Below, piece by piece: positions 5,261 to 56,108 of a stretch of DNA of 64,000 bases. Within the stretch, counting starts at the first letter, position 1; each line of letters opens with the position of its first letter. The position numbers and the translations under genes were made by a program. Under the pieces are notes generated by a model. It made no database searches. It had not been told where the DNA came from and saw only the letters and a program-made list of their open reading frames with translations. Source of the stretch: Patescibacteria group bacterium (lineage in GTDB: Bacteria > Patescibacteriota > Patescibacteriia > UBA9570); the NCBI GenBank assembly GCA_041660305.1, contig JBAZWO010000001.1:226268-290267 (forward strand), written 5' to 3'.

Positions 5261-6202
5261 TTACCGGCAACCCTCGGAGTTGAAATTGAAGCTGTATCCA
5301 GGTTGACCAGTAAAATTGTATCCGGCAAACTGGTTGCCGCAAACACTGTCGCCACTACCTGGCCACTTGCTGATAGGCAAATTCTCCTGACCAGAGAATG
5401 TTCCGCCGCTGGTACTGGTTGCGCGCAGCATTTCGATGTGAACATGGGCACCTGTGGAGCTGCCAGTGTTGCCCAGATAGCCAACGCCGCGTCCTTTAGC
5501 GATCCACCAACCCGGTACAACCATTGAAGAATCACGCATGTGCGCCAGCCGGTAATAGTAACGCTTGCCACTACCAGCATTACCACATTCTGCGATAATT
5601 TGGTTCCCATAGCTGGAGCTGTACGAAGTGTACTTTACCCAGCAGCTAGCCGGGGACTCGAGCAATTTTCCGGTTGTACCATTGGCCCAGTCCGTGGAGT
5701 AGTAGATAGACCCTGTGTGCTTGTAACAGCCGTAGCCACAGGTCATGGTGAAGGTTCCGCCGTCCATGGGCAAACGCCAGTTCCAGGGAAAGCTGTCGTA
5801 GGTGTTGGTTCCGGTACCCTGTGTGCCCTTGATAGTACCCTGCGAATTGTTGATGAAATCCAGAATGTTGTCGCCGGCCGGAGAACGAGCTTCGATGATG
5901 TCTCCGGTATGATCGTCGATATAAGTGACCAGGTACTTTTCTTCCACCTGCTCGATGAAGCCCCAGGTGGACATGGCCTCATTGGCCGAGATTACATAGG
6001 GCAACATGTCACTGTAGATCACCAGCTCCGGATTCACACCGACAGACAAGGCAATCGTCTCGGCATCTTCGAGAGAAATCATCCCCTCGACATCGTTCTG
6101 CAACTCAGTCTGAAACTCAGACGAGCTCTGATCACCACATCCGAAGAACATGGTAACCACAACCATCACACCAACCAACGTTTTCAACGAACGATCGCGC
6201 AT
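5261..6202 (-). CDS. High-GC lipoprotein precursor with a PepSY-like region and a C-terminal M23 (LytM-type) metallopeptidase domain
   Basis: GGAGG lies 5 nt upstream of the second ATG (6202). N-terminus MRDRSLKTLVGVMVVVTMFFGCG has a lipobox-like FFGC. M23 hallmarks YYYRLAHM...GNTGSSTGAHVHIE (HxH). Line 5761-5820 has 35/60 G+C. Confidence 0.8.
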   Translation of the reverse strand: MRDRSLKTLVGVMVVVTMFFGCGDQSSSEFQTELQNDVEGMISLEDAETIALSVGVNPELVIYSDMLPYVISANEAMSTWGFIEQVEEKYLVTYIDDHTGDIIEARSPAGDNILDFINNSQGTIKGTQGTGTNTYDSFPWNWRLPMDGGTFTMTCGYGCYKHTGSIYYSTDWANGTTGKLLESPASCWVKYTSYSSSYGNQIIAECGNAGSGKRYYYRLAHMRDSSMVVPGWWIAKGRGVGYLGNTGSSTGAHVHIEMLRATSTSGGTFSGQENLPISKWPGSGDSVCGNQFAGYNFTGQPGYSFNFNSEGCR

Positions 6203-6324
6203 GATAACCTCCATTTTCAGGTTGCGCGGTGATACCGTTACCTCCGTTCAAACCATCTGAAAGTAAGTAACCGTACCAACATGAATAGCATAAATAATAT
6301 CGTTATTTTTGAGAAGGGGTTTTT

Positions 6325-35257: not shown

Positions 35258-35773
35258 TTACTCTATGAGTGAAAAAGTTTGTATAATATCATTCACTTCT
35301 TTTTGAATATTAACATTTTGCTCTGCCATATCAGGATAACCTGCATAATCACCGCTGCCTGAATAATAATAACTATAAGTCGAATTTTCTGTTAAGTATG
35401 TCTGCGGATAGTCTATCACGGCCGAATCAGTCTTATCTTCATTTTTTACGATTTGAATTTGAATATAGCGTGCAGAATCATTTTCTGCCGTTAATCGAAC
35501 AGTTTTGTAGATTTTTGAACCTGATTCTACCTTTTCTTGAACAGCTCCCCAATTAGTAGGAAATACCAAAGAAAATCCATACGTTGAGTTTTTATATTCC
35601 CCCAAACTAGATACTGGCTCTGTCGTACTTTCCTCTGGCGCTGGAGTGGTGGTATTAGTGTTAGTTGGCGCTGTATTCACAGGTAAATTAGTATTTTGCT
35701 CTGTAGTGCATCCAGCTCCAATCAGGGTAACTAATCCTACCAGGCCGGTAATGAGATACGTTTTTTTGTGCAT
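35258..35773 (-). CDS. Lipoprotein, paralog family 1 of 3
   Basis: I prefer the start MHKKTYLITGLVGLVTLIGAGCT at 35773. It shares a near-identical domain with 35790..37250. Confidence 0.7.
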   Translation of the reverse strand: MHKKTYLITGLVGLVTLIGAGCTTEQNTNLPVNTAPTNTNTTTPAPEESTTEPVSSLGEYKNSTYGFSLVFPTNWGAVQEKVESGSKIYKTVRLTAENDSARYIQIQIVKNEDKTDSAVIDYPQTYLTENSTYSYYYSGSGDYAGYPDMAEQNVNIQKEVNDIIQTFSLIE

Positions 35774-35789
35774 AGATATGTTACTTACT

Positions 35790-37250
35790 TTATTGATTCC
35801 TAAATTTATCTGCAAAACTATTAACCAGCGCAGTTAAGTCTTTCCTAGTTTCCTCACTTGTAACTGGATTATAGCTAGCACTAAACCAATACCGGCTACC
35901 AGCTGAAGCACCTTGGATAATATATGCCTCATGACCCTGTGTATTATCACCCCTACTATAATTATATTTCACTGCGTTATAACCATTAATATCCAGTATC
36001 TCATAATCATCATAGTTATTGATATCAGTTCCTTCTACGCCATCTGCTGGAAAATAGATCTTTTCAGCATAAGTTTTGGCCCAAGCCACTAGATCACTTT
36101 TATCCTCAGAAGCTTTATATTCAGTGATACTAATTCCAGTAGTACTCGTAGCGGCTTTAGGATCGCTAGATTCAATCGATAACATAACTGCCTCTAGTGT
36201 GTCCACGCCTTCTAATTCTACATTATCCATTGCATCATTTAAACTATATTTCCCCGGATACTCAATGATAAAATTATCACTATCATAAGTGATTAAACCA
36301 GTATTCAATTTTAAGCTTGGTTCAACCACTTTTTTCACTTCGTCACAGCCAATAGGTTGTTTGGAGCCATCAGCACGTCCGCTGCCACATGAACTTTCAA
36401 ACAGAAGCCAATCTTTATTAAGCATTTTTGGATAGTTGCCTTCACCTGCCGCACATATATCAAAGTCTCTCTTGAATTGGTCAGCAGAAGTGTAACCAGC
36501 TTTGTTGGGTAATAGAGTAACCACAAAAGTGTCAGCTTTTTGGATTGCGTCTAAGTACTGAAAACTGTAGATTATTTTTGTTGTACCGCTAAATTTTGCA
36601 ACCAATTCATCGAAGTATAGGAGGGCGATACCGGCTTCTTGTTCGGTCCCGCATTCATCTGCGTTGGCTTTTAACTGCTCGGCAGTATAATCAAATGGGG
36701 CTGTCGTTTTTGAAACTGACGCATTAACGCCAGTAGTTGAATAAGACAGGGGTTCAGTTGATTCGTCTGTCAGAGAAAATGTTTTGCTGATTTCCTTTAC
36801 TTCTTTTTGAATATCAAAATATTTTTGTTCTTCCATATCAGGATAACCAGCATAATCACCGCTGCCTGAATAATAATAACTATAAGTCGAATTTTCTGTT
36901 AAGTATGTTTGCGGATAATCTATTACAGCCGGATCAGTCTTATCTTCACTTTTTACGACCTGAATTTTAATAAATCGAGCCGAGTCGTCTTCTGCTGATA
37001 ATTGAATAGAAGCGTTGATTTTTCCACCATTTTCTTGTCTTTCTTTTATTGTTCCCCAACTTTCAGGAAATACCAAAGAGAATCCATACGCTGAGTTTTT
37101 ATATTTGTATTGATTTGTTTCAGAAACTGATGTGTCTGCTCCTGTTTCTGTGGCAAGGCTGGTGTTGGTAGTTTGTTCTGTAGTGCATCCGGCTCCAAGC
37201 AGGATAAATAATCCTACCAGGCCGGTGATGAGATACGTTTTTTTGTTCAT
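35790..37250 (-). CDS. Lipoprotein, paralog family 2 of 3
   Basis: MNKKTYLITGLVGLFILLGAGCT. Nucleotides 36834-36957 match 35327-35450 with about 7 mismatches in 124 nt. Confidence 0.7.
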   Translation of the reverse strand: MNKKTYLITGLVGLFILLGAGCTTEQTTNTSLATETGADTSVSETNQYKYKNSAYGFSLVFPESWGTIKERQENGGKINASIQLSAEDDSARFIKIQVVKSEDKTDPAVIDYPQTYLTENSTYSYYYSGSGDYAGYPDMEEQKYFDIQKEVKEISKTFSLTDESTEPLSYSTTGVNASVSKTTAPFDYTAEQLKANADECGTEQEAGIALLYFDELVAKFSGTTKIIYSFQYLDAIQKADTFVVTLLPNKAGYTSADQFKRDFDICAAGEGNYPKMLNKDWLLFESSCGSGRADGSKQPIGCDEVKKVVEPSLKLNTGLITYDSDNFIIEYPGKYSLNDAMDNVELEGVDTLEAVMLSIESSDPKAATSTTGISITEYKASEDKSDLVAWAKTYAEKIYFPADGVEGTDINNYDDYEILDINGYNAVKYNYSRGDNTQGHEAYIIQGASAGSRYWFSASYNPVTSEETRKDLTALVNSFADKFRNQ

Positions 37251-37303
37251 AGATGTATTTAGTTTAATTGTCTTATTGTAGAGTCTGCTTAATTGTTGAT
37301 TGA

Positions 37304-38620
37304 CTATTCTGCTATAGAATGTGAGTATTCTATGCCATACATCATATCATTCAACAAGTCTGTTTTTGATCGAAACGATTGTTCGTCAGTATCATTTACA
37401 ATTATCGTAAGATAATACTGTCGTGGTTCAGTATCACCAAGCATAGTATCTTTAAAAGGAATAATATAATGACTAAAATAGCGTGTAGTGGATGTGCCAT
37501 CTACTGTTGTATGTTCTATTTCACCTTCATACTTCATTGCTGGCATGCCATCTACACTCACAGATTGAACACTAAATTGATTCTCTTTGAGCGAGGTATC
37601 ATTCGGAGAAGTATACGGCCAATATGGATTATCTAATGCGGATTTATTGTAACCTTCTTTGTTCATAAAATTAATACACGAAAAGCACGGAGGTGCTATT
37701 TCTCCTCCCCGGTCTGCTGTGTAAGCATAATCTTTTGAATAGATTGTAAAACTGGGTGTACGTGGTTCCGCAGTAGCAAATTCTATATCATATGCCTCTC
37801 CGGTTATTTGTGCCTGTTCATCGTCATATAAATCTTCATGTTTTTTGTGTAAAGATATAGCACCCCATTTTCCATCTGCGCAGAGTGTAAACGGAACACC
37901 GGGTATTCCTATACGTCGGAGATTAGTACTGGCTGCTGAACAGGGAGTTTCTGGATCACGTTGAGCGGTTAGTTTTGCAGCAGCAACCAGGGAATGATCG
38001 ACTGTATTCTCTCTGTTCATTCGTTCAATAACGATATAACCGGTTTTCTGATTTCCCACAAATGGCATTTCTTTTGGAGCAGTAATATAGTCAAACTCCT
38101 TTTGGCGAAAATAATCCTGTAAATCTCCAATAATTGGACTAATATACACATACTCTTGATTCAACGCATCATTGGCTCTTAGAATACCAAGAGTATACAC
38201 CTCATTTTCTTTCAAAGTAGGTAAAGCGTCCAGAATCGAGCTTGGAAAGTACAGTGAATGCGTATACCCTGTTCGCATATTGCGTTCATAATCATCAATC
38301 ATAAAATGGTAATCATATGCATTCAAAGTACCGATATTTTTTTCAGAAACGAGTAATACCATGTCGCCGACATGGGTTGGAGATTCACTTTCTATAGCAC
38401 CTTTCTTACTCGGACTAAGCTGCTCAGGATAGGTTGGCTGAATAGGAGGATCCACTTTTACTGCTTGCGCCATAATAGTACCGACCTCTGTAGAGAAAGA
38501 TATTTCATTCTGGGGGGAGTTAGTTTGTGATGTGGTTGTCTGTTCTGATTTAGTGCATCCGGCTCCAAGCAGGCTAACTAATCCTACCAGGCCGGTGATG
38601 AGATACGTTTTTTTGTTCAT
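37304..38620 (-). CDS. Lipoprotein, paralog family 3 of 3
   Basis: MNKKTYLITGLVGLVSLLGAGCT. The 5' end and leader (38563-38640) are nearly identical to 37183-37262. Confidence 0.7.
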   Translation of the reverse strand: MNKKTYLITGLVGLVSLLGAGCTKSEQTTTSQTNSPQNEISFSTEVGTIMAQAVKVDPPIQPTYPEQLSPSKKGAIESESPTHVGDMVLLVSEKNIGTLNAYDYHFMIDDYERNMRTGYTHSLYFPSSILDALPTLKENEVYTLGILRANDALNQEYVYISPIIGDLQDYFRQKEFDYITAPKEMPFVGNQKTGYIVIERMNRENTVDHSLVAAAKLTAQRDPETPCSAASTNLRRIGIPGVPFTLCADGKWGAISLHKKHEDLYDDEQAQITGEAYDIEFATAEPRTPSFTIYSKDYAYTADRGGEIAPPCFSCINFMNKEGYNKSALDNPYWPYTSPNDTSLKENQFSVQSVSVDGMPAMKYEGEIEHTTVDGTSTTRYFSHYIIPFKDTMLGDTEPRQYYLTIIVNDTDEQSFRSKTDLLNDMMYGIEYSHSIAE

Positions 38621-38644: not shown

Positions 38645-38965
38645 TTATTGCGTCTGCTTAATTGTTGTAATAACCGCTTGGACAAATGGATTGCCGTGTT
38701 TCAGTTTGGGAAAAATTTTTTTCCCGGCCCGTTCCTTTTGTAATAGATTGGCATGTTCTAAAATTTTGATATGTTGCGATGCTAACGGTAGGGAAATCTT
38801 CAAAATGTGTGCAATATCGCCAACAGTCAGTTCAGGCTGTTCCACCAGCAGGCGGAAAATTCGGTAACGATTCACATCACTTAGTACTTTAAAGGCCGCG
38901 GCCATGTTTTTATCGATTTTACTGAATACTTTACGATTTTTTAGAATAGCTTTTTGGTTGAGCAT
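38645..38965 (-). CDS. ArsR/SmtB-family winged-helix regulator (no cysteines)
   Basis: FKVLSDVNRYRIFRLLVEQPELTVGDIAHILKISLPLASQHIKILEHANLL. Lacks metal-sensing Cys motifs. Divergent from the high-GC cassette array. Confidence 0.8.
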   Translation of the reverse strand: MLNQKAILKNRKVFSKIDKNMAAAFKVLSDVNRYRIFRLLVEQPELTVGDIAHILKISLPLASQHIKILEHANLLQKERAGKKIFPKLKHGNPFVQAVITTIKQTQ

Positions 38966-39071
38966 ATAATAAATTATTAAAAATATTAGTTAAATACTTG
39001 TTTATATGTTTATATATATACCATCACGATTAATCCGTCAATAGCTATTCGTCCATTACCAGAAAAAATAC

Positions 39072-39101
39072 TTGACTTTATTTAGCAGGCGTGGTTACTA
39101 T
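39072..39101 (+). promoter_or_regulatory. Sigma-70-like promoter in front of leader copy 1
   Basis: TTGACT (39072-39077), an 18-nt spacer, then TACTAT (39096-39101). The same TACTAT precedes leader copy 2 (39783-39788). Confidence 0.6.
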
Positions 39102-39254
39102 GTGGTTCGCTCTTTGAAAAAAAAGATGCATTCAAGTCTAAATTATAAATTTTAATAATCTATATTTTAGATCTGAGTGCATCGCTTCGCTAATATTTAG
39201 CAAAGTACAGATGCGTCAGGCAAAGGCCCACTTTGGGCAAAAAAGGAGAGGACG
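39102..39254 (+). promoter_or_regulatory. Conserved cassette leader, copy 1 (153 nt, structured)
   Basis: GTGGTTCGCTCTTTGAAA... Hairpin 1 39125-39183, hairpin 2 39185-39205, hairpin 3 39226-39238, SD GGAG 39245-39248. Line 39121-39180 has 13/60 G+C. Confidence 0.8.
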
Positions 39255-39593
39255 ATGAAGAACTCATTGTTGGTTAGTTTTTCGATGTTGGTGTTTGGTT
39301 GTTTCATGGGGTGCCTGCCGGATGTTCCTTTGGAGGAAGGAAGTCCAACTCCAGATGCTGAAGTCGGGTGTTATACCGACGACGACAGAGACGGATACAT
39401 CTCCGCCGCATGCGGGTACGGGACGGAGAGTCCCGACTGCGACGATGGCGACCCCAACGTGAACCCCGGCGTCACAGAGATCTGCGGCGACGGAATTGAC
39501 AATAACTGCGGGGGAATGATTGATGAGGATTGCCCTAGCCCCGCCGTCGTTGACGAAATTTCTTTAGGGGAGGAGATCAACGAAGGGCTTTGA
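39255..39593 (+). CDS. High-GC small lipoprotein precursor with one Cys-rich MopE-like (putative metal-binding) repeat
   Basis: SD plus ATG. MKNSLLVSFSMLVFGCFMGC, then DDDRDGY...DCDDGDPNVNPGVTEICGDGIDNNCGGMIDE. Confidence 0.75.
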   Translation: MKNSLLVSFSMLVFGCFMGCLPDVPLEEGSPTPDAEVGCYTDDDRDGYISAACGYGTESPDCDDGDPNVNPGVTEICGDGIDNNCGGMIDEDCPSPAVVDEISLGEEINEGL

Positions 39594-39788: not shown

Positions 39789-39941
39789 GTGTTTCGCTCT
39801 TTGAAATAAAGATGCATTCAAGTCTAAATTATAAATTTTAATAATCTATATTTTAGATCTGAGTGCATCGCTTTACTGAATTTTTGGTAAAGTACGGATG
39901 CATCAGGCAGGAGCCCGATTATTGGGCCAAAAGGAGATGGG
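39789..39941 (+). promoter_or_regulatory. Conserved cassette leader, copy 2
   Basis: Identical to copy 1 through hairpin 1. Hairpin 2 has a diverged sequence but keeps its pairing. Hairpin 3 is GCCCGATTATTGGGC. Confidence 0.8.
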
Positions 39942-40628
39942 ATGAGAAATTTACTAGTCGCGGTTCTTGGTTTTTTGTTTCTTGTTGCCGGATTTTTTTT
40001 CATCGGCTGCGGGCCGATGGAAGAAGATGACGATTGTTCGGCTGCGTATAGCAGCGCTACGCCAGTGACGGACGACTGGCGGCCGGAGACAGAGGTCATC
40101 CTAGATGATGTCCTCTGGATTAGCCAGGCACCGCCGTCTTTGGATTGTGGCCCCACCACACTGGAGATGGCGTGGGCGTTTTTGGATGGAGAAATTCCAA
40201 CGTACGATCCAGGCGTCATTGATATAATGGCATGGATGGATGAACACGTCGATACATATGATAACGGGGGTCTGACAAATATGGTTGAGTTGGCGTACAC
40301 CAGCTTGTGGTATTTACAGCTCCCAGCGGAGGCATTCGGAGATGATCTCTGTATATCGATCGGCGGGTTGGAGGGGTTATACAATGAACTCCTGCTTGGA
40401 AAGCCAGTAGGATTCTCAAGCTATGGGCAAGAGGCTAATGCCTCAACGGCCGAAATGACGGCCGATGGAACAGGCCATGCTATGCTCCTTGTGGGCATGA
40501 CACCCACTGAAATCGTGGTGCACGACTCTAGTCAAAGCTCTGATTTTGGAGCTTATCGCCGCTTCAGTATCGAGAGTTTCGACCGAGTTGGTTGGAATTC
40601 TCACGGCGGGGTGAGGTTTATGCCGTAG
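39942..40628 (+). CDS. High-GC lipoprotein precursor with a C39-like papain-fold cysteine peptidase domain
   Basis: MRNLLVAVLGFLFLVAGFFFIGCG. SQAPPSLDCGPTTLEMAWAFLDG fits Q...CG..(L)xM, and GHAMLLVGMTPTEIVVHDS fits His...Asp. Confidence 0.65.
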   Translation: MRNLLVAVLGFLFLVAGFFFIGCGPMEEDDDCSAAYSSATPVTDDWRPETEVILDDVLWISQAPPSLDCGPTTLEMAWAFLDGEIPTYDPGVIDIMAWMDEHVDTYDNGGLTNMVELAYTSLWYLQLPAEAFGDDLCISIGGLEGLYNELLLGKPVGFSSYGQEANASTAEMTADGTGHAMLLVGMTPTEIVVHDSSQSSDFGAYRRFSIESFDRVGWNSHGGVRFMP

Positions 40629-40664: not shown

Positions 40665-40880
40665 AAAACGCTGGAGCTCTGAAAGTCTAAACACTTTCAT
40701 CTCCACTAATTTCTAGGGCACAGAAAAGTGGTTCGCTCTTTAAAAATAAAGATGCATTCAAGTCTAAGTTATAGATTTTAATAATCTATATCTTAGATCT
40801 GAGTGCATCGCTTCGCTAATATTTAGCAAAGTACAGATGCATCAGGCAGAGGCCCAATCATTGGGTCAAAAGGAGAAGAG
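40665..40880 (+). promoter_or_regulatory. Conserved cassette leader, copy 3 (core 40728-40880) with a 63-nt 5' extension shared with copy 4
   Basis: The extension AAAACGCTGGAGCTCTGAAAGTCTAAACACTTTCATCTCCACTAATTTCTAGGGCACAGAAAA contains the hairpin GGAG..GAAAGT/ACTTTC..CTCC. Confidence 0.8.
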
Positions 40881-41498
40881 ATGAGAAATTTATTTGGTTT
40901 TTGTTTTGTTGTTAGTTTTTTATTTTTTTTCGGTTGTTTGGAGGACGTCCCCACGGGTTGTGAGGATTCCACTACACCGTGCCCGATGGAGGTGCCAACA
41001 CCCCTGCCCGGGTGTGTGGCGTCCCCGATCTCAGGGGACGAGCTCCTGAGTTTCTTCCCTGAGTGGGAAGGAACCGCGAAGTTTGTATCGATATATGAAG
41101 AATGTTCCGGAGACTGCTCCGGGACTTTCACTTTCCAGTCGGGAGTGTTCCCAGGTCAAACGGATGGAAATGCCTCTATAAGCATGGAGGGCTCGTTCGG
41201 AGACATGTCTTCTTGCGATGGGGGCTACCTGCCGTTAACCGCAACTTTTGATAGTTGTGGAGGTATGATGGCGAAAGGAGATTTCGGGGCTTTTGGGACC
41301 ATTTATTTAGAGGGTCAGTTTGCTGAAGAGGAGACCACTTTAGAGTGGTCTAGTAATGGGTGGGGGGATGGGGAGGATATTAATTTCCTCTACCTCCGCA
41401 TAGATTACGAAGACGATTGGATCGTCTCGACCACCACGAGACAAGATCAAAATGACGAGGTAGTGTGGGAGGAGTCATGGGACTCCGGCTGTAATTAA
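40881..41498 (+). CDS. High-GC lipoprotein precursor, unknown function
   Basis: SD plus ATG. MRNLFGFCFVVSFLFFFGC. Cys-containing 205-aa product with no recognised domain. Confidence 0.6.
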   Translation: MRNLFGFCFVVSFLFFFGCLEDVPTGCEDSTTPCPMEVPTPLPGCVASPISGDELLSFFPEWEGTAKFVSIYEECSGDCSGTFTFQSGVFPGQTDGNASISMEGSFGDMSSCDGGYLPLTATFDSCGGMMAKGDFGAFGTIYLEGQFAEEETTLEWSSNGWGDGEDINFLYLRIDYEDDWIVSTTTRQDQNDEVVWEESWDSGCN

Positions 41499-41638: not shown

Positions 41639-41850
41639 AAAAACGATGGAGCTCTGAAAGTTTAAACACTTTCATCTCCACTAATTTCTAGGGCACAGAA
41701 AAGTGGTTTGCTCTTTGAAATAAAGATGCATTCAAGTCTAAGTTATAAATTTTAATAATCTATATTTTAGATCTGAGTGCATCGCTTCGCTAATATTTAG
41801 CAAAGTACAGATGCATCAGGCAAAGGCCCACTTTAGGCAAAAAGGAGAAG
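41639..41850 (+). promoter_or_regulatory. Conserved cassette leader, copy 4 (core 41703-41850) with the shared 5' extension
   Basis: Near-identical to copy 3 in the extension and to copy 1 in the core. Confidence 0.8.
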
Positions 41851-42480
41851 ATGATGAAAAATGTAGCACTGGTCGTTGGCTTTCTGCTGGTTGCCGGAAT
41901 GGTGTTCTTTTTCTTCGGTTGTGGCGCTTACGGAGAGGATGACGATTCCACTGATTCCACCGCTACGCCAGGTGAGTGTGTTGAGGGGGAGACGGAGGAG
42001 TTAGCAGATCTGTGGCATCCGGATAGGGACACCGATGGCTTCGGTGCGGAGGACGGGGTAATCCTCTCCTGTACCCAACCTGTCGGTTACGTCGCCGACA
42101 ACACCGACTGCGATGACGCCGACGCCACGGTCTATCCCGGCGCGACCGAGGTCTGTGACGGGAAGGACAACGACTGCGATGGCGCGATCGATGAAGGCTT
42201 CGATACGGACGCAGACGCAGACGGATACACCGTCTGCACTGACTGCGACGACGATGACCCGGCTGTTGGCGACCCACCTACCTGGTATGAGGACGCCGAC
42301 GACGACGGGTACACACAACCTTTTAATGGGGTCAAGTCGTGTACCCGGCCCGAGGAAGGCTGGGTGATTGGGTCTGAAGAAGCCGACTGCAACAAGGGTG
42401 ACGCCAGCGTCTACCCTGGCGCCCCTGAGATCTACGACGGGAAGGACAATGACTGCGACGGCGAAATTGATGAGGGTTGA
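41851..42480 (+). CDS. High-GC lipoprotein precursor with tandem Cys-rich MopE-like (putative metal-binding) repeats
   Basis: MMKNVALVVGFLLVAGMVFFFFGCG. Repeats DCDDADATVYPGATEVCDGKDNDCDGAIDEG and DCNKGDASVYPGAPEIYDGKDNDCDGEIDEG. Line 42121-42180 has 39/60 G+C. Confidence 0.75.
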   Translation: MMKNVALVVGFLLVAGMVFFFFGCGAYGEDDDSTDSTATPGECVEGETEELADLWHPDRDTDGFGAEDGVILSCTQPVGYVADNTDCDDADATVYPGATEVCDGKDNDCDGAIDEGFDTDADADGYTVCTDCDDDDPAVGDPPTWYEDADDDGYTQPFNGVKSCTRPEEGWVIGSEEADCNKGDASVYPGAPEIYDGKDNDCDGEIDEG

Positions 42481-42514: not shown

Positions 42515-42551
42515 CTCGCTTAGAACATAGTGTTCCAAGCGAGATTTTTTT
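42515..42551 (+). terminator. Rho-independent terminator closing the cassette array
   Basis: CTCGCTTAGAACAtagTGTTCCAAGCGAG followed by ATTTTTTT. Confidence 0.8.
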
Positions 42552-42599
42552 AAAATAATATCGGTCGTATAATCCTACTAAATAAAGCTTTCCGTATAG

Positions 42600-43622
42600 T
42601 TACAACAAAACATAATATCGTCCTTTAGTTTCACCTCGTTCAGCCGCATAGCCTTTTTGGACTAAGGCACTTAATAAGCGGTGGGCATACTGGCGAGATA
42701 CATGAAACTCTCGTTCAATATCACTAGCCGTTAATTGTTGCCGTTGCTGTAGTAATGCATAAGCAACTTGCTCTTTATTGGATAATCTTTGAGCAACATT
42801 TACGTGTTGAATAGCTTGCTCTGCTTTAGTTAAAGCGCTTTGTAAGGAATACCGAACTCCAGCTGTAAAATATTCTAACCAAGTTGTTTTATCTCCACTA
42901 TCGGCAGTATGTAAGCTATCTGAATATTCTTTACGATTCACATCATACCAATCATCCAACACGAAATATTTATTAATTTCGTAGTTATGCTGTAATAAAA
43001 TTAAAGCGGTTAATAATCTACATGTCCGGCCGTTACCATCAATAAAAGGATGTAGATAAACAAATTCGTGATGAAATATTCCGGCCGTTAAAATTGTTGG
43101 CACGTTAGCAGTGTCTTCTAACCATGAAAATAATTGTTGCAACGCTATTATAATTTTTACCGCTGAATGATAAGGCGGTTCATGTTTTACATGAAGTATA
43201 AGTTTCCCATTAACTTGCCTGCGTTTGCCAACTACAATACGTTTATTACGAATCGTGCCGGCAATATCATTATTTACTCCAACTAATAATTGTTGATGCA
43301 CGCTTAATAAATATTCAAGGTTAAGTGATTTTTTTACATCTTGGGATAAATTACGTAAAATATCAAAATAGTTACGCACTTCTTTTTCATCACGATTCAC
43401 TGGCACGCGTTCATCTAGCAACAAATTCGTTACTTCCGGTAACGATAATGAATTTCCTTCAATACTATTGGAGATATAAGCCGATTGAATTAAATTATCA
43501 CGTTCTAAGTTGAGCTGTAGTTTCTTTGGCAAACGCAAACTTTCCAACCGACCATACAAACGCTCTATTTTCGTTAAATTCTGTAATAACGTAGAAGTTA
43601 ACGTATAATTTGGTTTGAACAT
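42600..43622 (-). CDS. Fic-family protein (AMPylase-type) with a C-terminal winged-helix domain
   Basis: Fic motif HPFIDGNGRTCR. C-terminal wHTH-like LTASDIEREFHVSRQYAHRLLSALVQKGY. Confidence 0.9.
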   Translation of the reverse strand: MFKPNYTLTSTLLQNLTKIERLYGRLESLRLPKKLQLNLERDNLIQSAYISNSIEGNSLSLPEVTNLLLDERVPVNRDEKEVRNYFDILRNLSQDVKKSLNLEYLLSVHQQLLVGVNNDIAGTIRNKRIVVGKRRQVNGKLILHVKHEPPYHSAVKIIIALQQLFSWLEDTANVPTILTAGIFHHEFVYLHPFIDGNGRTCRLLTALILLQHNYEINKYFVLDDWYDVNRKEYSDSLHTADSGDKTTWLEYFTAGVRYSLQSALTKAEQAIQHVNVAQRLSNKEQVAYALLQQRQQLTASDIEREFHVSRQYAHRLLSALVQKGYAAERGETKGRYYVLL

Positions 43623-45744: not shown

Positions 45745-45927
45745 GATCAAACAAGGGCTACAGCCCTGAGCGAGGAAGGAACGCAGTGAGTGACGAGTCG
45801 AAGGGCTGACTACTTACGACGAAATTCGAACTTATTATACCCAAAATTCAAGTGAAACAGAATAGGGCGCGGCGGGCAAAAAGGAAGGGGGTTTCGGGGG
45901 AAGGAATTTTTGCCCGTTTTTTCTCTT
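45745..45927. repeat. Composite repeat R (L segment, P motif, terminator hairpin)
   Basis: L segment 45745-45806 is about 80% identical by eye to 47442-47505. P motif 45807-45831. Hairpin CGGGCAAAAA (45873-45882) with TTTTTGCCCG (45907-45916), then T6. The loop is the mirror repeat GGAAGGGGG..GGGGGAAGG. Confidence 0.8.
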
Positions 45928-47349: not shown

Positions 47350-47441
47350 TTTACTTCTTTCAACCGCTCAAAACGAACACCTTCTAGCCAACAGCTTGAG
47401 TTTTTCTTTATCGCCATTGATTAAAGCTTCTTTTTTGGCAC

Positions 47442-47505
47442 GATCAAACAAGGGGCTATAGCCCCGAGCGAAAAACGAACACAGTGAGTTTTTCAGTCGA
47501 AGGGC
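47442..47505. repeat. L segment of the composite repeat, immediately 3' of tRNA-Gln
   Basis: GATCAAACAAGGGGCTATAGCCCCGAGCGAAAAACGAACACAGTGAGTTTTTCAGTCGAAGGGC. It contains the palindrome GGGGCTATAGCCCC and the stem GAAAAAC/GTTTTTC. Confidence 0.75.
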
Positions 47506-47575
47506 TGGGTCGGTAGGATTCGAACCTACGATGACGGGGCCAGAACCCGTTGCCTTACCACTTGGCTACGACCCA
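47505..47575 (-). tRNA. tRNA-Gln (anticodon CUG), CCA not encoded
   Basis: Manual fold. Acceptor UGGGUCG/CGACCCA with U1-A72. D arm GCCA-AGUGGUA-AGGC. Anticodon stem ACGGG/CCCGU with loop UUCUGGC. T arm GUAGG-UUCGAAU-CCUAC. Discriminator G. Confidence 0.85.
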
Positions 47576-47631
47576 ATAGCTTCAGTAATATAACGTCTTT
47601 TATTAAGCCTGTAAAGACTAGAAACAAAAAC

Positions 47632-52409: not shown

Positions 52410-54977
52410 CTAGAAAAACGCGTCTGGACCAGTTAGTTCAGCTCCGCCTGCTAAATTATTCAGTTTTCCTCGTTCAATTACTTCAGCTTCAACGATGGCC
52501 CGATCTCGACCATGTTTTAAGCGTGATAATTGCTTAATTTGTTCAGCTAATTTTACATTACCAGCTGGTGGCATAACTGTGCGCATATTAAACGGCCGAC
52601 AAGTAGTATTATCAATTAATAATTTAATATTAGCTGTGTATTTATCTACGTTAATAACATCGTTTTCATTAAACACTGGTGCTAATTCTTTTGCGATCAT
52701 CTCGGCATCTTCTACACCAATGCGGAAGGCTATTTTGGTGCCAACGTTACCAAAGACAGCATCACGAATTTGCGTATTGTTATCTTTTACTAACTGATTA
52801 ATATATTGATGAGCTAAAATCATATTCAAACGATATTTACGCGCTTCAGACAAAATTGTAGCAATGGAATCGGTAGTGTAGTTTTGAAACTCATCAACAT
52901 AGGTGTAAAAATCTTTACGTTGCTCTTGTGGCATACTAGCCCGCGCCATGGCCGCCATCTGAATTTTAGACACCATAATTAAACCAAGTAATGAACTATT
53001 AACTTCGCCAATGGATCCTTTGGACAAATTCACTAATAATATTTTCCGATTATCCATGATTTCCCGCACATTAAAGCCTGAACGAGCCTGCCCAACGATA
53101 TTGCGCATCATATCGTTAGTTAAAAACCGGCCAATTTTGGAAATAACGTACGATAACATGTCGGCCGCTTGTTGCCCAGCTTGTGATTGCTCATATTCTT
53201 GTTGCCAGAAATTCTTTACCATTAAGTTTTTTACTTTTTTTAACTTATCTTTACGAAATTTAGCATCGGTAAACATGCGTGGAATTTCAATTAAGGTAGC
53301 GCCTGATTCTTTATCTTCCATTAAAGCCAACATAGCGTTACGCATGTAATGTTCAAACATTGGACCAATCATTTCCTGACCGAATAACTTATAAAAAATT
53401 GCTACCATTTCTTGCACGGCAAAATCTTTTTGCTCATTAGTTTCGTATTCCAACATGTTCAAACCCACTGGCCGTTCAATATCGCTCGGTGAGAACACTA
53501 CTACATCATCGGCTCGTTCTTTTGGTATCCGCTCTAACACATCTTGTACTAAATCGCCGTGTGGATCAATCACACACACACCTTCACCATTTTTAATATC
53601 TTGCACGGCCAAACTGGACAACAATACCGATTTACCAGAACCGGTTTGCCCAATAACATATAAGTGCCGCTGACGATCAGCTCGTTTTATTTTCACTGGT
53701 GTAACCATGCCCCGATACTCCACTTCTCCTAAAGTAACGCCTTCTTTTGGCATATTAAATGGCGGCGCAGCTTTTTTGGCTAATAACCAACGAATGTTTG
53801 GTGTTTCGGTGGTTGGTAATGGCATGTGATACAAAGTGGTTATTTCCTTGGTATTCAAAATAAAACTTCCTTTTTCATCAAACGTTCGATAAATAAAATG
53901 CTGAATTTCTTTTTTACTGGTAGTTGGTTTAGTGGCAATAAATTCATTAGCATAGAGTGTACCGGAATATTGAGCAAACGAACCAAGAATGGATTGCATT
54001 TTATTTTCCGCGATTGCTTTATTAGCAGCCGATACAATAATCCTAATATTTACATCAAAGCCTGGACTAGCGGCTTTTTCCTCAAAACCTTTCACCATTT
54101 CTTCTTCCATTGGTGATAAACGATATTCTCGCTCGGTACGTAAATCTATGCCTTGCTCACGTTTAGCTCGATTTTTCATGTACATGTATTTAAAACTAAT
54201 CCAAAATCGATAAAAAACATTGCCAAATAATTCGGCTTTAGCCTGCTCATATTTTTTACCTTGTTGCATTACTTGAGCAATGCGCGCTGGTTTACGCGCC
54301 CAATTAGTTAATGCTGGCCGAATAACAAATTGAATCGCCGCTCCTTCATGTTTTTCAAATTTCGATAATACATTGGTTAATGAGTTTAACGGATCTACTT
54401 CTAATTTATTGTAAATCAAAATAGGATATTCATATGGTTTTTTTAATTTAATTCGAGAACTAACCACTACACCATTGGGTTCAAAAATATTATAGTCATC
54501 CACTTGTTCAATAACCGCGCTATTATATTGAGCATGAAACTGTTGCTCAAAAAAACGCCGTAAATAAAACGGCACCGCCGCATAAAATGTGATTAATTGA
54601 TCTTTATCAGCTACTAATTCTAAACTAATATGATCATTTCGCCCTAATAGCCATTGTTCAAATTTGCGATACGGCCGAATAGAAGCCACGGCCGAATAAA
54701 ATGCCTCAATAATACCTATCCGCGCTTCTTCGGTTGGTTTGCGGTAGGAATCGTTCTGACTTTGTTGTTCTTTTAAATCTTCTTTCGAAACACGAATAAA
54801 TAAAATTACTTTACGAAAACTCTCTTTTTCTTCAATCCAACGATGAATTAAACGCCGGGCTATCATCAGCCAACCTACCAACAAAATTGTACTAACTAAA
54901 CCGTAAGTTAAGCTAGCCACTAACGGATCAGCTAAATACCCCAGACCTAATTTTAATAATTCAAAAATAAACCCCAT
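52410..54977 (-). CDS. Membrane-anchored VirD4/TraG/TraD-like (type IV coupling protein-like) P-loop ATPase
   Basis: N-terminal TM helices, Walker A GQTGSGKS, Walker B-like YVDEFQNY. The C-terminal half resembles TraD/VirD4. I did not recognise the roughly 430-aa N-terminal region. Confidence 0.6.
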   Translation of the reverse strand: MGFIFELLKLGLGYLADPLVASLTYGLVSTILLVGWLMIARRLIHRWIEEKESFRKVILFIRVSKEDLKEQQSQNDSYRKPTEEARIGIIEAFYSAVASIRPYRKFEQWLLGRNDHISLELVADKDQLITFYAAVPFYLRRFFEQQFHAQYNSAVIEQVDDYNIFEPNGVVVSSRIKLKKPYEYPILIYNKLEVDPLNSLTNVLSKFEKHEGAAIQFVIRPALTNWARKPARIAQVMQQGKKYEQAKAELFGNVFYRFWISFKYMYMKNRAKREQGIDLRTEREYRLSPMEEEMVKGFEEKAASPGFDVNIRIIVSAANKAIAENKMQSILGSFAQYSGTLYANEFIATKPTTSKKEIQHFIYRTFDEKGSFILNTKEITTLYHMPLPTTETPNIRWLLAKKAAPPFNMPKEGVTLGEVEYRGMVTPVKIKRADRQRHLYVIGQTGSGKSVLLSSLAVQDIKNGEGVCVIDPHGDLVQDVLERIPKERADDVVVFSPSDIERPVGLNMLEYETNEQKDFAVQEMVAIFYKLFGQEMIGPMFEHYMRNAMLALMEDKESGATLIEIPRMFTDAKFRKDKLKKVKNLMVKNFWQQEYEQSQAGQQAADMLSYVISKIGRFLTNDMMRNIVGQARSGFNVREIMDNRKILLVNLSKGSIGEVNSSLLGLIMVSKIQMAAMARASMPQEQRKDFYTYVDEFQNYTTDSIATILSEARKYRLNMILAHQYINQLVKDNNTQIRDAVFGNVGTKIAFRIGVEDAEMIAKELAPVFNENDVINVDKYTANIKLLIDNTTCRPFNMRTVMPPAGNVKLAEQIKQLSRLKHGRDRAIVEAEVIERGKLNNLAGGAELTGPDAFF

Positions 54978-55799: not shown

Positions 55800-56108
55800 T
55801 TAGTAATCGCGACCACCACCATTGCCACCGCGGTTAAAACCACCACTGCGTGGGCGATCTTCTTTTGGTCTAGCTTCGTTTACCTTCAAACGACGACCAT
55901 CTAATTCTTGACCATCCCACATTTGAATAGCAGCTTGTGCAGCTTCATCTGTAGTTAGTTCTACGAAACCAAATCCTTTAGAACGACCAGTCATACGATC
56001 CATAATGATCGTAGCTGATTCTACTGGACCAGCCTGTTCAAAGGCTGCTTTTAAACCGTCTTGGGTAGTATTATATGAAATACCACCTACATATAGCTTT
56101 TTCGCCAT
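55800..56108 (-). CDS. RRM-type RNA-binding protein with a C-terminal RGG tail
   Basis: RNP2 KLYVGGISY, RNP1 KGFGFVEL, tail RSGGFNRGGNGGGRDY. Confidence 0.9.
   Translation of the reverse strand: MAKKLYVGGISYNTTQDGLKAAFEQAGPVESATIIMDRMTGRSKGFGFVELTTDEAAQAAIQMWDGQELDGRRLKVNEARPKEDRPRSGGFNRGGNGGGRDY

What the first reader, a model, noticed from the sequence alone, without database searches (positions are those of the whole stretch)
39102..39254. The cassette leader is a conserved multi-hairpin element with compensatory substitutions: candidate new cis-regulatory RNA or sense-strand hairpin site
Hairpin 1 (copy 1, 39125-39183):
- GATGCATTCAAGTCTAA pairs with TTAGATCTGAGTGCATC over 17 positions, with one A.C mismatch.
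- Pairing continues inward to a 5-nt loop (39152-39156), giving about 27 paired positions.
- Between copies, pair 39142/39166 is A-T in copies 1 and 2, G.T in copy 4 (41742/41766) and G-C in copy 3 (40768/40792). This is a full covariation series.
- In copy 3, A to G at 40774 repairs the A.C mismatch with C40786.
- Two pairs are G.T (39136/39172 and 39131/39177). These work only on the + (sense) strand, which points to a transcript or top-strand structure.

Hairpin 2 (39185-39205): its sequence differs in copy 2 (39871-39892) but the stem is kept. G39189-C39201 becomes A39875-T39888, and the C.A mismatch becomes T-A.

Hairpin 3 (GCCCA/TGGGC, 39226-39238): the stem is kept while loop length and sequence vary (CTT, TTA, TCA), and copies 2 and 3 gain a pair. 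It sits 4-6 nt before the SD.

Possible switch: GAGTGCATC (39175-39183) can pair with the 5' GATGCATTC or with a second GATGC (39210-39214) beyond hairpin 2.

An alternative reading is a DNA operator. TTGAAA (39115-39120), then 18-19 nt, then TAAATT would place a promoter inside hairpin 1.
Basis: seen in the sequence. Interest (0 to 1): 0.75.

Follow-up and report, generated by a model that had tools for sequence, protein, structure and literature searches.

The report
Repeated hairpin leader before lipoprotein genes
Four near-identical, hairpin-rich stretches of about 155 bases each sit directly in front of one of four unrelated surface-lipoprotein genes in a foreign-looking island of a Patescibacteria genome; they most likely form an mRNA leader that hides the ribosome-binding site, but the element is known from one lineage only and the covariation evidence is thin.

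Summary
Four direct copies of a ~155-nt block (39102, 39789, 40728, 41703) each end at the SD and ATG of a lipoprotein gene. Hairpin 1 folds far better than shuffles (z about -7.5).

- Nothing in Rfam matches.
- 38 of 47 predicted pairs never vary, and the two double changes are matched by 54 of 500 shuffles.
- Strand bias is mixed.
- The "A-T, G.T, G-C series" is confounded by a mosaic of left and right leader halves.
- Outside this strain I found one diverged homolog (L127), which has no above-chance structure.

New points:
- A conserved 5' CUCUUU pairs with the SD (p 0.82-0.89 in three copies).
- The 3' arm of hairpin 1 can pair over 10 bp with a downstream GAUGCRUCAG, which leaves the SD free.
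- One sigma-70-like promoter precedes copy 1 and one strong terminator follows gene 4.
- The genes have foreign codon usage, and close relatives lack the array.
- No recombinase lies within the 64 kb.

Best reading (0.45): an orphan leader / intercistronic RNA that occludes the SD, possibly opened by cleavage in hairpin 1. Rivals are a promoter-operator, a cassette junction, or a duplication relic. Interest is modest.

The parts
39072..39101 (+). Sigma-70-like promoter P1 (TTGACT-18-TACTAT). It ends exactly where the conserved block of copy 1 begins.
   Evidence: This is a consensus match only: 6 promoter-like sites were found in the region against 5.1 expected.
39102..39254 (+). Leader copy 1. 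It runs up to the ATG at 39255 of a 112-aa MopE-motif lipoprotein.
39110..39115 (+). CUCUUU, invariant in all four copies (also at 39797-39802, 40736-40741 and 41711-41716). It is predicted to pair with the SD.
39125..39183 (+). Hairpin 1: a 59-nt imperfect palindrome with 24 consensus pairs and the loop TTAAT. The other copies lie at 39811-39869, 40751-40809 and 41725-41783. Copies are 95-100% identical.
39184..39206 (+). Hairpin 2. In copy 2 (39870-39893) it is rewritten at 6-7 positions but the stem is kept.
39210..39219 (+). Box 3, GAUGCRUCAG, a partial direct repeat of the 5' arm of hairpin 1. It can pair over 10 bp with the 3' arm (39173-39183). The other copies lie at 39897-39906, 40836-40845 and 41810-41819.
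39226..39238 (+). Hairpin 3. The stem is kept in copies 1-3 and weakened in copy 4 by a G-to-A change.
39243..39248 (+). Shine-Dalgarno AAGGAG of copy 1. The other copies lie at 39931-39936, 40870-40875 and 41842-41847.
39789..39941 (+). Leader copy 2, before the 228-aa C39-like lipoprotein gene (39942-40628).
40728..40880 (+). Leader copy 3, before the 205-aa orphan lipoprotein gene (40881-41498). A 63-81-nt flank shared with copy 4 precedes it (40665-40745 / 41640-41720, with a hairpin at 40673-40704).
   Evidence: (family D3).
41703..41853 (+). Leader copy 4, before the 208/209-aa MopE-motif lipoprotein gene (41851 or 41854 to 42480).
42515..42551 (+). The only convincing plus-strand intrinsic terminator of the array: a 29-nt GC-containing hairpin followed by A and T7.
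   Evidence: One search flagged no plus-strand terminator between the genes.
39076..39089 (.). Left copy of a 14-nt inverted repeat, CTTTATTTAG(C/T)AGG. The right copy is at 42574-42587. The pair brackets the whole island.
   Evidence: pair I9; 2 of 1000 shuffles.

Best explanation
The block is a cis-acting mRNA leader. It serves as the 5' UTR of the first gene and as an intercistronic element for the other three, in a horizontally acquired four-gene lipoprotein operon of a Patescibacteria bacterium.

The operon is probably transcribed from P1 (39072-39101) to the single terminator (42515-42551). Each leader folds into a closed multi-branch structure. A conserved 5' CUCUUU pairs with the AAGGAG of the SD. 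Hairpins 1, 2 and 3 sit inside that closing helix. In this default state translation of each cistron is held down.

The long, almost invariant 24-pair hairpin 1 is the likely handle for a duplex-recognising factor. My preferred candidate is an RNase III-type cut. Such a cut would detach the anti-SD strand and free the SD. It would also let the remaining 3' arm pair with box 3, forming a 10-bp helix near the new 5' end around hairpin 2.

Shown: the repeats, the predicted folds, the complementarities, and the promoter-like and terminator-like sites. Inferred: transcription through hairpin 1, SD occlusion in vivo, and the cleavage step.
For: - The four copies end at the SD and ATG in the same register.
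- Whole-leader folds have z of -4.0 to -7.5. They are 4-12 kcal/mol more stable on the sense strand in every copy.
- RNAalifold keeps all five helices.
- SD bases are paired with the 5' CUCU at p 0.82-0.89 in copies 1, 2 and 4.
- GCTCTTT is invariant, although it lies outside any hairpin.
- Each 5' block paired with its own SD region gives the best of the 24 possible assignments.
- Hairpin 2 of copy 2 carries 6-7 changes: G-C to A-U, C.A to U-A and two new wobbles. The stem survives only on the plus strand.
- Without the 5' arm, the 3' arm and box 3 form a 10-bp helix in all four copies and the SD becomes unpaired. The one variable base of box 3 gives U.G or U-A.
- One promoter-like site ends at the block start, and the only strong terminator follows gene 4.
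- The candidate internal promoter varies at its -35 G, its spacer and its -10. The -10 change is the base that covaries in the stem.
- RNase III cleavage that unmasks an occluded RBS has precedent in adhE and lambda cIII (PMC5371410).
Against: - The covariation is not significant: 2 double changes, matched by 54 of 500 shuffles, and 38 of 47 pairs invariant.
- Hairpin 1 is nearly as stable on the minus strand, and slightly more stable there with DNA parameters in three of the four copies.
- Hairpin 2 of copies 1, 3 and 4 is more stable on the minus strand.
- In copy 3 the SD core is paired with only p about 0.2.
- The margin in the own versus non-own duplex test is 0.4 kcal/mol.
- Hairpin 1 is conserved in sequence, loop and mismatches included. 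Selection on structure alone does not predict this; sequence-specific recognition at the DNA level would.
- The only remote homolog (L127) lacks the 5' block, and its leader folds no better than shuffles (z +0.25).
- There are no transcript data, and no RNase III gene lies in the window.
- The promoter and terminator calls are consensus matches at background frequency.
Confidence: 0.45

Rival explanations
1. DNA-level module. Each leader carries its own promoter (-35 TTGAAA at 39114-39119, -10 TAAATT inside the 5' arm). Hairpin 1 is a palindromic operator for a dimeric regulator. Transcripts start near the hairpin loop, so only hairpins 2 and 3 and the helix between the 3' arm and box 3 exist as RNA.
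For: - One search finds TTGAAA-18-TAAATT in copy 2.
- Hairpin 1 is conserved as sequence on both arms, in the loop and at the mismatches. That fits protein recognition of DNA.
- A symmetric operator mimics pair covariation.
- Copies 3 and 4 have no recognisable promoter upstream of the block, so they need either an internal promoter or read-through.
- With DNA parameters neither strand is clearly favoured.
- An ArsR-family regulator is transcribed divergently next to copy 1. The motif AAATACTTG from its own upstream region recurs over the -35 of P1 (family D13).
Against: - The hexamers and their spacing are not conserved. The -35 G is lost in copy 3. The spacer is 19 in copy 1, 18 in copies 2 and 4, and about 19-20 in copy 3 by eye. 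The -10 is TAAGTT in copies 3 and 4.
- Promoter-like sites occur at background frequency.
- This reading does not explain the invariant GCTCTTT or its complementarity to the SD.
- A 59-bp palindrome is far longer than usual operators.
- The ArsR gene is conserved across Patescibacteria that lack the array.
Confidence: 0.2
2. Cassette junction or recombination substrate. The conserved core is where gene cassettes are joined or exchanged, by homologous recombination or by an unlinked site-specific recombinase. Each leader is then a composite of the 3' end of one cassette and the 5' end of the next. Any expression role is secondary.
For: - The mosaic groups the left flank, through column 41, as (c1,c2)(c3,c4). 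The part from column 123 into the first codons groups as (c1,c4)(c2,c3).
- Cassettes 2 and 3 share both a 5' type and an 81-nt 3' flank, yet encode unrelated proteins (family D3).
- The cargo is unrelated and partly orphan, with GC3 of 0.53-0.66 against 0.29 +/- 0.07 for the host genes.
- The array is missing in close relatives.
- A 14-nt inverted repeat brackets the island.
- Precedent: the recombination sites of the Mycoplasma vpma/vsp families lie in the conserved 5' UTR (PMC2268961).
Against: - No tyrosine or serine recombinase, transposase or integrase was found among the ORFs of at least 90 aa that were scanned (about 58 of the 75 listed; the rest are mostly nested or overlapping frames).
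- There is no attC signature: no RYYYAAC/GTTRRRY boxes and no extrahelical bases.
- The repeat is 5' of each gene, includes the SD, and none follows the last gene.
- Three independent assemblies show the same order without a single difference.
- No other context was found for the cassette-2 protein cluster or the cassette-4 hit.
- Ordinary unequal crossing-over or gene conversion explains the mosaic.
Confidence: 0.12
3. Relic without a dedicated function. The leader, the SD and the signal peptide were copied together by tandem duplication of a lipoprotein gene's 5' end, and gene conversion kept them alike. The palindrome is an inherited feature. One possibility is a minus-strand terminator, since the hairpin is followed by T8 or TTTATTT on the minus strand.
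For: - The copies lie only in this one array.
- Identity declines smoothly from hairpin 1 (95-100%) to hairpin 3-ATG (76-88%) to the signal-peptide codons (57-64%).
- The covariation is not significant.
- On the minus strand, hairpin 1 is followed by a T-rich run in all copies.
Against: - The contrast between the signal peptides at about 60% and hairpin 1 at 95-100% needs either selection or very local conversion.
- Copies 1 and 2 are identical for 66 nt. They then differ at 6-7 of the next ~15-28 positions, all stem-preserving. That points to constraint on hairpin 2.
- Part of the leader sequence survives in L127, whose protein is only 57% identical.
Confidence: 0.15

Closest known systems
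RNase III-activated leaders (E. coli adhE, lambda cIII) and the intercistronic RNase III sites of the phage T7 early mRNA
   Same: A long irregular hairpin lies in a 5' UTR or between cistrons. The RBS is occluded by base pairing until cleavage frees it (PMC5371410). In T7, similar hairpins recur between successive genes of one transcript (my own knowledge).
   Different: No cleavage, transcript or RNase III gene has been observed here. There is no sequence similarity. In this leader the anti-SD lies 5' of the hairpin and pairs over about 130 nt.
Mycoplasma variable-lipoprotein families (vpma of M. agalactiae, vsp of M. bovis)
   Same: Both are clustered lipoprotein genes. The 5' UTR and signal-peptide region are conserved, and the mature parts are unrelated (PMC2268961). 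Both organisms are small-genome, surface-dependent bacteria.
   Different: The vpma loci have one promoter, genes in both orientations, and an adjacent Xer1 recombinase that inverts DNA at sites within -1 to -72. Here all genes point the same way, no recombinase is nearby, and three assemblies are invariant.
Correia repeat enclosed elements (CREE) of Neisseria
   Same: Both are repeats of about 100-155 bp with long inverted repeats next to genes. A CREE can create promoters and, once transcribed, can bind RNase III and be cut or protected by it (PMC2649163).
   Different: As I recall, CREE are dispersed, mobile, found in either orientation and at variable distance from genes. This block has four copies, one orientation, a fixed register with the SD and ATG, and an asymmetric body beyond the palindrome.
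Integron attC sites and chromosomal cassette arrays
   Same: Both show near-identical imperfect palindromes between unrelated genes of foreign composition. Both have composite junctions.
   Different: attC lies 3' of the cassette and has R''/R' core sites and extrahelical bases. It is recombined by a linked IntI, and the last cassette also ends in an attC. None of this is seen here.
SD-sequestering RNA thermometers (fourU, ROSE)
   Same: A U-rich strand pairs with the SD through a helix containing G.U pairs and mismatches.
   Different: Those elements are short local hairpins. Here the partner is 130 nt away and encloses three further hairpins. Temperature dependence is untested.

Membership tests
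Any Rfam 15 family | A covariance-model score at or above the family's gathering threshold | tested here: not met
   The best hits are microRNA-precursor models at 17-21 bits against thresholds of 54-90, with E of about 1 or worse (1.1 to 10). These are generic long-hairpin matches.
Riboswitch-type aptamer | Junctions and loops conserved while stems covary, and occurrence across many genomes | tested here: not met
   The pattern is the opposite: the stem and loop of hairpin 1 are invariant and the junction columns vary. The element was found in one lineage only.
Integron attC | R'' RYYYAAC and R' GTTRRRY core sites flanking the palindrome | tested here: not met
   The arms are GATGCATTCAAGTCTAA / TTAGATCTGAGTGCATC. 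I saw no AAC...GTT cores when reading the block. No pattern search was run for this.
Integron attC | Extrahelical bases in the folded strand | tested here: not met
   The fold has symmetric 1x1 internal loops only.
Integron attC | A linked integron integrase and an attC 3' of every cassette | tested here: not met
   No recombinase domain was found among the scanned ORFs of the 64 kb. No copy follows gene 4.
Mycoplasma vpma/vsp-type switch | 5' UTR and signal peptide conserved across a lipoprotein gene cluster | tested here: met
Mycoplasma vpma/vsp-type switch | An adjacent tyrosine recombinase, and inverted gene orientations that allow promoter capture | tested here: not met
   All four genes lie on the plus strand. 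No recombinase was found.
MITE / Correia-like repeat | Many dispersed copies in both orientations with terminal inverted repeats at the element's ends | tested here: not met
   Only four copies lie in the 64 kb, all in one orientation and one register. The palindrome is internal to the block. The rest of the genome could not be searched.
RNase III processing site | A double-stranded RNA stem of about two helical turns or more within a transcript | tested here: inconclusive
   A 24-pair stem interrupted by three 1x1 loops is predicted. Whether it is transcribed is inferred from P1 only.
RNase III processing site | Cleavage observed in vivo or in vitro | not testable with these tools
   No transcript or biochemical data are available.

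The most novel reading that the evidence does not exclude
The leader is the junction module of a recombinase-independent, or remotely encoded, gene-cassette system in a CPR bacterium. Foreign coding segments are slotted between a conserved 5' module and a conserved 3' flank. The 5' module provides translation control, an SD and a lipoprotein signal peptide. The result is a variable surface-lipoprotein array inside an island bounded by inverted repeats. In effect it would be an integron-like expression platform whose recombination site lies 5' of the gene.
Probability: 0.06. Interest if true: 0.8.

Novelty: new member of a known kind. Interest (0 to 1): 0.33.

Why it matters
If the model holds, this would be a first worked example of post-transcriptional control in Patescibacteria. 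That group has no genetic systems and almost no characterised regulatory RNAs. The example would involve surface lipoproteins, which are plausible mediators of contact with a host cell. It would also show a horizontally acquired operon in which every cistron carries the same translational lock.

As it stands, the element is an orphan found in one population. It is a reasonable candidate for a reporter or structure-probing experiment. It is not evidence for a new class of RNA.

Tried and rejected
- Genome-contig scan with GATGCAYTCARRTCTAA. The pattern was too degenerate.
- Two-arm pattern in metagenome and viral contigs: 0 hits.
- Second metagenome scan with the motif shared by the window and L127: 6 hits, all unrelated contexts.
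- blastn against phages and plasmids: nothing.
- The covariance model found no further copy in the window or in six related loci (L122, L124-L128). There was one 16-bit hit inside a coding region at 54205-54363.
- Assemblies L120 and L121 are 100% identical to the window, so they add no diversity.
- Synteny through the ArsR neighbour: relatives keep the ArsR gene and the downstream lipoprotein gene but not the array.
- Orthologous MopE-motif lipoprotein genes in L125, L126, L128 and L135 have unrelated leaders.
- Leader peptide. A 15-codon uORF starts in box 3 and ends in the AUGA overlapping the main start in copies 1-3. I rejected it because the frame is lost in copy 4, I saw no SD ahead of it, and the changes are non-synonymous but keep the stem.
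- A 9-codon ORF inside hairpin 1 was rejected for similar reasons: no SD, and only non-synonymous changes.
- A -10 box TAATAT in hairpin 2 was rejected because copy 2 loses it while keeping the stem.
- attC, MITE and riboswitch readings are covered in the membership table.
- Cassette 2 as a recent paralog of the native C39-like gene was rejected: identity is only 23%.

Full report
**What is there**

Between a divergently transcribed ArsR-family gene (38645-38965, minus strand) and a convergent Fic-family gene (42600-43622, minus strand) lie four plus-strand genes:
- 39255-39593: 112 aa, with a MopE-type metal-binding motif.
- 39942-40628: 228 aa, C39-like peptidase.
- 40881-41498: 205 aa, no Pfam match.
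- 41851-42480: 209 aa, two MopE motifs.

All four begin with an F-rich signal peptide that ends in a lipobox-like xGC. Each is preceded by one copy of the same block of about 155 nt (family D1; alignments). The block runs into the SD and the ATG in the same register in every copy. The window holds no other copy.

**Check of the observation**

The only slip is TTGAAA, which lies at 39114-39119.
- Hairpin 1 (59 nt) folds to -22.5 kcal/mol, against -6.3 +/- 2.2 for shuffles (z -7.5).
- Whole leaders give z of -4.0 to -7.5.
- RNAalifold keeps five helices: a long-range closing helix, hairpin 1, hairpin 2, a 3-bp mini-stem and hairpin 3.

**How strong the structural evidence is**

The evidence is weaker than the finding suggests.
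- Of 47 consensus pairs, 38 never vary.
- Two pairs change on both sides: 39142/39166, and G39189-C39201 against A39875-T39888. 54 of 500 column shuffles do as well.
- The wobble argument for the sense strand is mixed. Hairpin 1 has two G.U pairs and one A.C mismatch on the plus strand, and the mirror image on the minus strand. The energies are -22.5 against -20.5 as RNA. With DNA parameters the minus strand is marginally better in three of the four copies.
- Hairpin 2 of copies 1, 3 and 4 is more stable on the minus strand (-8.6 against -5.6).

The evidence that does favour the plus strand:
- Hairpin 2 of copy 2 is rewritten at 6-7 positions. It remains a full hairpin only on the plus strand (-7.4 against -3.0).
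- The whole leader is 4-12 kcal/mol more stable on the plus strand in all four copies.

**A confound: the leaders are mosaics**

Upstream of the block, and at alignment column 41, the copies group as (c1,c2)(c3,c4). Copies 3 and 4 share 81 nt at 95% identity there (family D3). From column 123 into the first codons they group as (c1,c4)(c2,c3).

Copy 4 therefore looks like a type-B left half joined to a type-I right half. Its G.T at 41742/41766 may be a recombination junction rather than an intermediate in a covariation series.

**New features**

1. GCTCTTT near the 5' end of the block is invariant. Its CUCUUU pairs with the AAGGAG of the SD with probability 0.82-0.89 in copies 1, 2 and 4. In copy 3 the probability is about 0.2, and CUCUUU pairs just downstream of the SD instead. 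Pairing each 5' block with its own SD region gives the best of the 24 possible assignments, but only by 0.4 kcal/mol.
2. CUGAGUGCAUC, the 3' arm of hairpin 1, pairs over 10 bp with one bulge to GAUGCRUCAG ('box 3', 39210-39219). Box 3 is a partial direct repeat of the 5' arm. An RNA that lacks the 5' arm adopts this helix in all four copies and leaves the SD unpaired (-17 kcal/mol, z -3.9).
3. Identity peaks sharply at hairpin 1:
   - hairpin 1, including loop and mismatches: 95-100%
   - hairpin 3 to ATG: 76-88%
   - signal-peptide codons: 57-64%

   This is the reverse of the riboswitch pattern. It points to recognition of a specific duplex by a protein or nuclease, at either the RNA or the DNA level.

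**Transcription context (inferred)**

- A sigma-70-like site, TTGACT-18-TACTAT, ends at 39101, exactly where copy 1 begins.
- Copy 2 keeps the TACTAT. Copies 3 and 4 have no recognisable promoter upstream.
- No plus-strand terminator was flagged between the genes.
- A strong terminator follows gene 4 at 42515-42551.

This suggests one operon in which the block is the 5' UTR once and an intercistronic element three times. Promoter-like sites in this AT-rich stretch occur at background frequency (6 found, 5.1 expected), so this is an inference. The internal candidate promoter (TTGAAA, then TAAATT) differs among the copies. The -35 G is lost in copy 3. The spacer is 19 in copy 1, 18 in copies 2 and 4, and about 19-20 in copy 3 by eye. 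The -10 is TAAGTT in copies 3 and 4.

**Origin and distribution**

- The source is a Patescibacteria MAG. Two other assemblies of the same population (L120 from NCBI, L121 from ENA) are 100% identical over 7.5 kb.
- The cassette genes have GC3 of 0.53-0.66, against 0.29 +/- 0.07 for 48 other genes in the window. The spacers inside the array are 43-46% GC.
- Cassette 2 has no homolog among 5.8 billion clusters apart from itself. Cassette 3 has one weak hit among 1.84 billion representatives.
- The ArsR neighbour is conserved at about 70% identity across Patescibacteria.
- In the closest relatives (L124 at 88-89% nucleotide identity, L122 at 76%), synteny stops at about 39023-39042 and the array is absent.
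- A 14-nt inverted repeat, CTTTATTTAG(C/T)AGG at 39076-39089 and 42574-42587, brackets the island. Only 2 of 1000 shuffles of the boundary zones produce such a repeat.
- No recombinase, integrase or transposase domain was found among the ORFs scanned in the 64 kb.

**Homologs of the leader**

- Rfam: nothing.
- Metagenome, viral, phage and plasmid collections: nothing.
- My genome-contig scan used too loose a pattern and returned only chance hits.
- Through homologs of cassette 4 I found one informative locus, L127. Its protein is 57% identical over 95% of its length, and the contig has 46% GC.
  - Its 93-nt leader aligns with the 3' arm of hairpin 1, hairpin 2 and GTACA. The score is 29, against 15 +/- 2.3 for shuffles with a maximum of 25.
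  - That leader lacks the 5' block. It has only a shorter hairpin and folds no better than shuffles (z +0.25).
- Other Patescibacteria orthologs (L125, L126, L128, L135) carry unrelated leaders with long hairpins of their own. The leaders of L126 and L128 have no Rfam match either.

**Interpretation**

I favour, at 0.45, an orphan cis-acting leader RNA that occludes the SD through the long-range CUCUUU:AAGGAG helix. Hairpin 1 would be the recognition element. An RNase III-type cut in it would detach the anti-SD strand, free the SD and leave a 5'-proximal helix between the 3' arm and box 3. This works like adhE or lambda cIII (PMC5371410). It also resembles the repeated intercistronic RNase III hairpins of the phage T7 early mRNA (my own knowledge).

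The rivals are:
- a promoter-operator module (0.2);
- a cassette junction or recombination substrate, in the manner of the vpma/vsp 5' UTR sites or integron attC, but without a recombinase or attC features (0.12; PMC2268961);
- a duplication and gene-conversion relic, possibly an antisense terminator (0.15).

These readings are not mutually exclusive.

**Verdict**

It is confined to one horizontally acquired array in one population. Its covariation support is not significant, and its kind, an SD-occluding or processed leader, is well known. Interest is modest.

Noticed in passing
L125:9885-10003, L126 (same sequence), L128:307-425: Orthologous MopE-motif lipoprotein genes in other Patescibacteria carry a different conserved leader. 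It has a hairpin of about 60 nt (GAAAGU...GCGGGGUUUYACUUUC) with one-sided wobble changes between L125 and L128, and a covarying pair in an outer enclosing helix. L126 and L128 have no Rfam match. The motif GTTTGGTGGATGAGG recurs upstream of two consecutive genes in L125.
   Followed up: partly
window 39076-39089 and 42574-42587: A 14-nt inverted repeat, CTTTATTTAG(C/T)AGG, brackets the whole GC-rich lipoprotein island. Only 2 of 1000 shuffles of the boundary zones give such a repeat. I saw no target-site duplication and found no transposase.
   Followed up: partly
window 38992-39000 and 39066-39074: AAATACTTG lies in the region upstream of the ArsR gene, a stretch conserved in the relatives L124, L122 and L125. 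The same motif recurs over the -35 of promoter P1. It may be a shared operator for the divergent promoters.
   Followed up: partly
window 39211-39258, 39898-39945, 40837-40884: A 15-codon uORF starts in box 3 and stops in the AUGA that overlaps the main start codon in copies 1-3. The frame is lost in copy 4. The changes are non-synonymous.
   Followed up: partly
window 45745-45810 and 47440-47517; L122:1-67: A GC-rich repeat of about 65 nt (GATCAAACAAGGGCTACAGCCC...AGTCGAAGGGCTG) occurs twice in the window. One copy abuts tRNA-Gln (47502-47576, minus strand). It also occurs in a related genome.
   Followed up: no
window 35258-38620 (minus strand): Three native lipoprotein paralogs have near-identical signal peptides (...KKTYLITGLVGL...GAGCT). 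The assemblies L120 and L121 both break in this region.
   Followed up: no
window 5261-6214 (minus strand): An M23 peptidase gene has GC3 of 0.63, far above the window mean of 0.29. It is a second compositionally foreign gene.
   Followed up: no
window 39117-39124; 39993-40000; 40923-40930: Homopolymer tracts: A8 in leader 1, and T8 in the signal-peptide codons of cassettes 2 and 3. These are possible slippage sites. The three assemblies show no length variation.
   Followed up: partly
window 40673-40704 and 41648-41679: A conserved hairpin, GGAGCUCUGAAAGU...ACUUUCAUCUCC followed by ACUAAUUUCU, lies in the shared 3' flank of cassettes 2 and 3. It may be a weak terminator or a 3' stabiliser.
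   Followed up: no
window 54205-54363 (minus strand): A weak hit of the leader covariance model (16.4 bits, E 0.02) falls inside the gene for a T4SS coupling-protein-like protein. It is probably chance.
   Followed up: no
window 55800-56108 (minus strand): A 102-aa bacterial RRM_1 RNA-binding protein is encoded next to tRNA-Arg.
   Followed up: no
L135:5960-6000: Another Patescibacteria MopE-motif lipoprotein gene (gene 60% GC in a 46% GC locus) has a leader hairpin followed by UUUUGUU just before its SD. This resembles a transcription attenuator.
   Followed up: no
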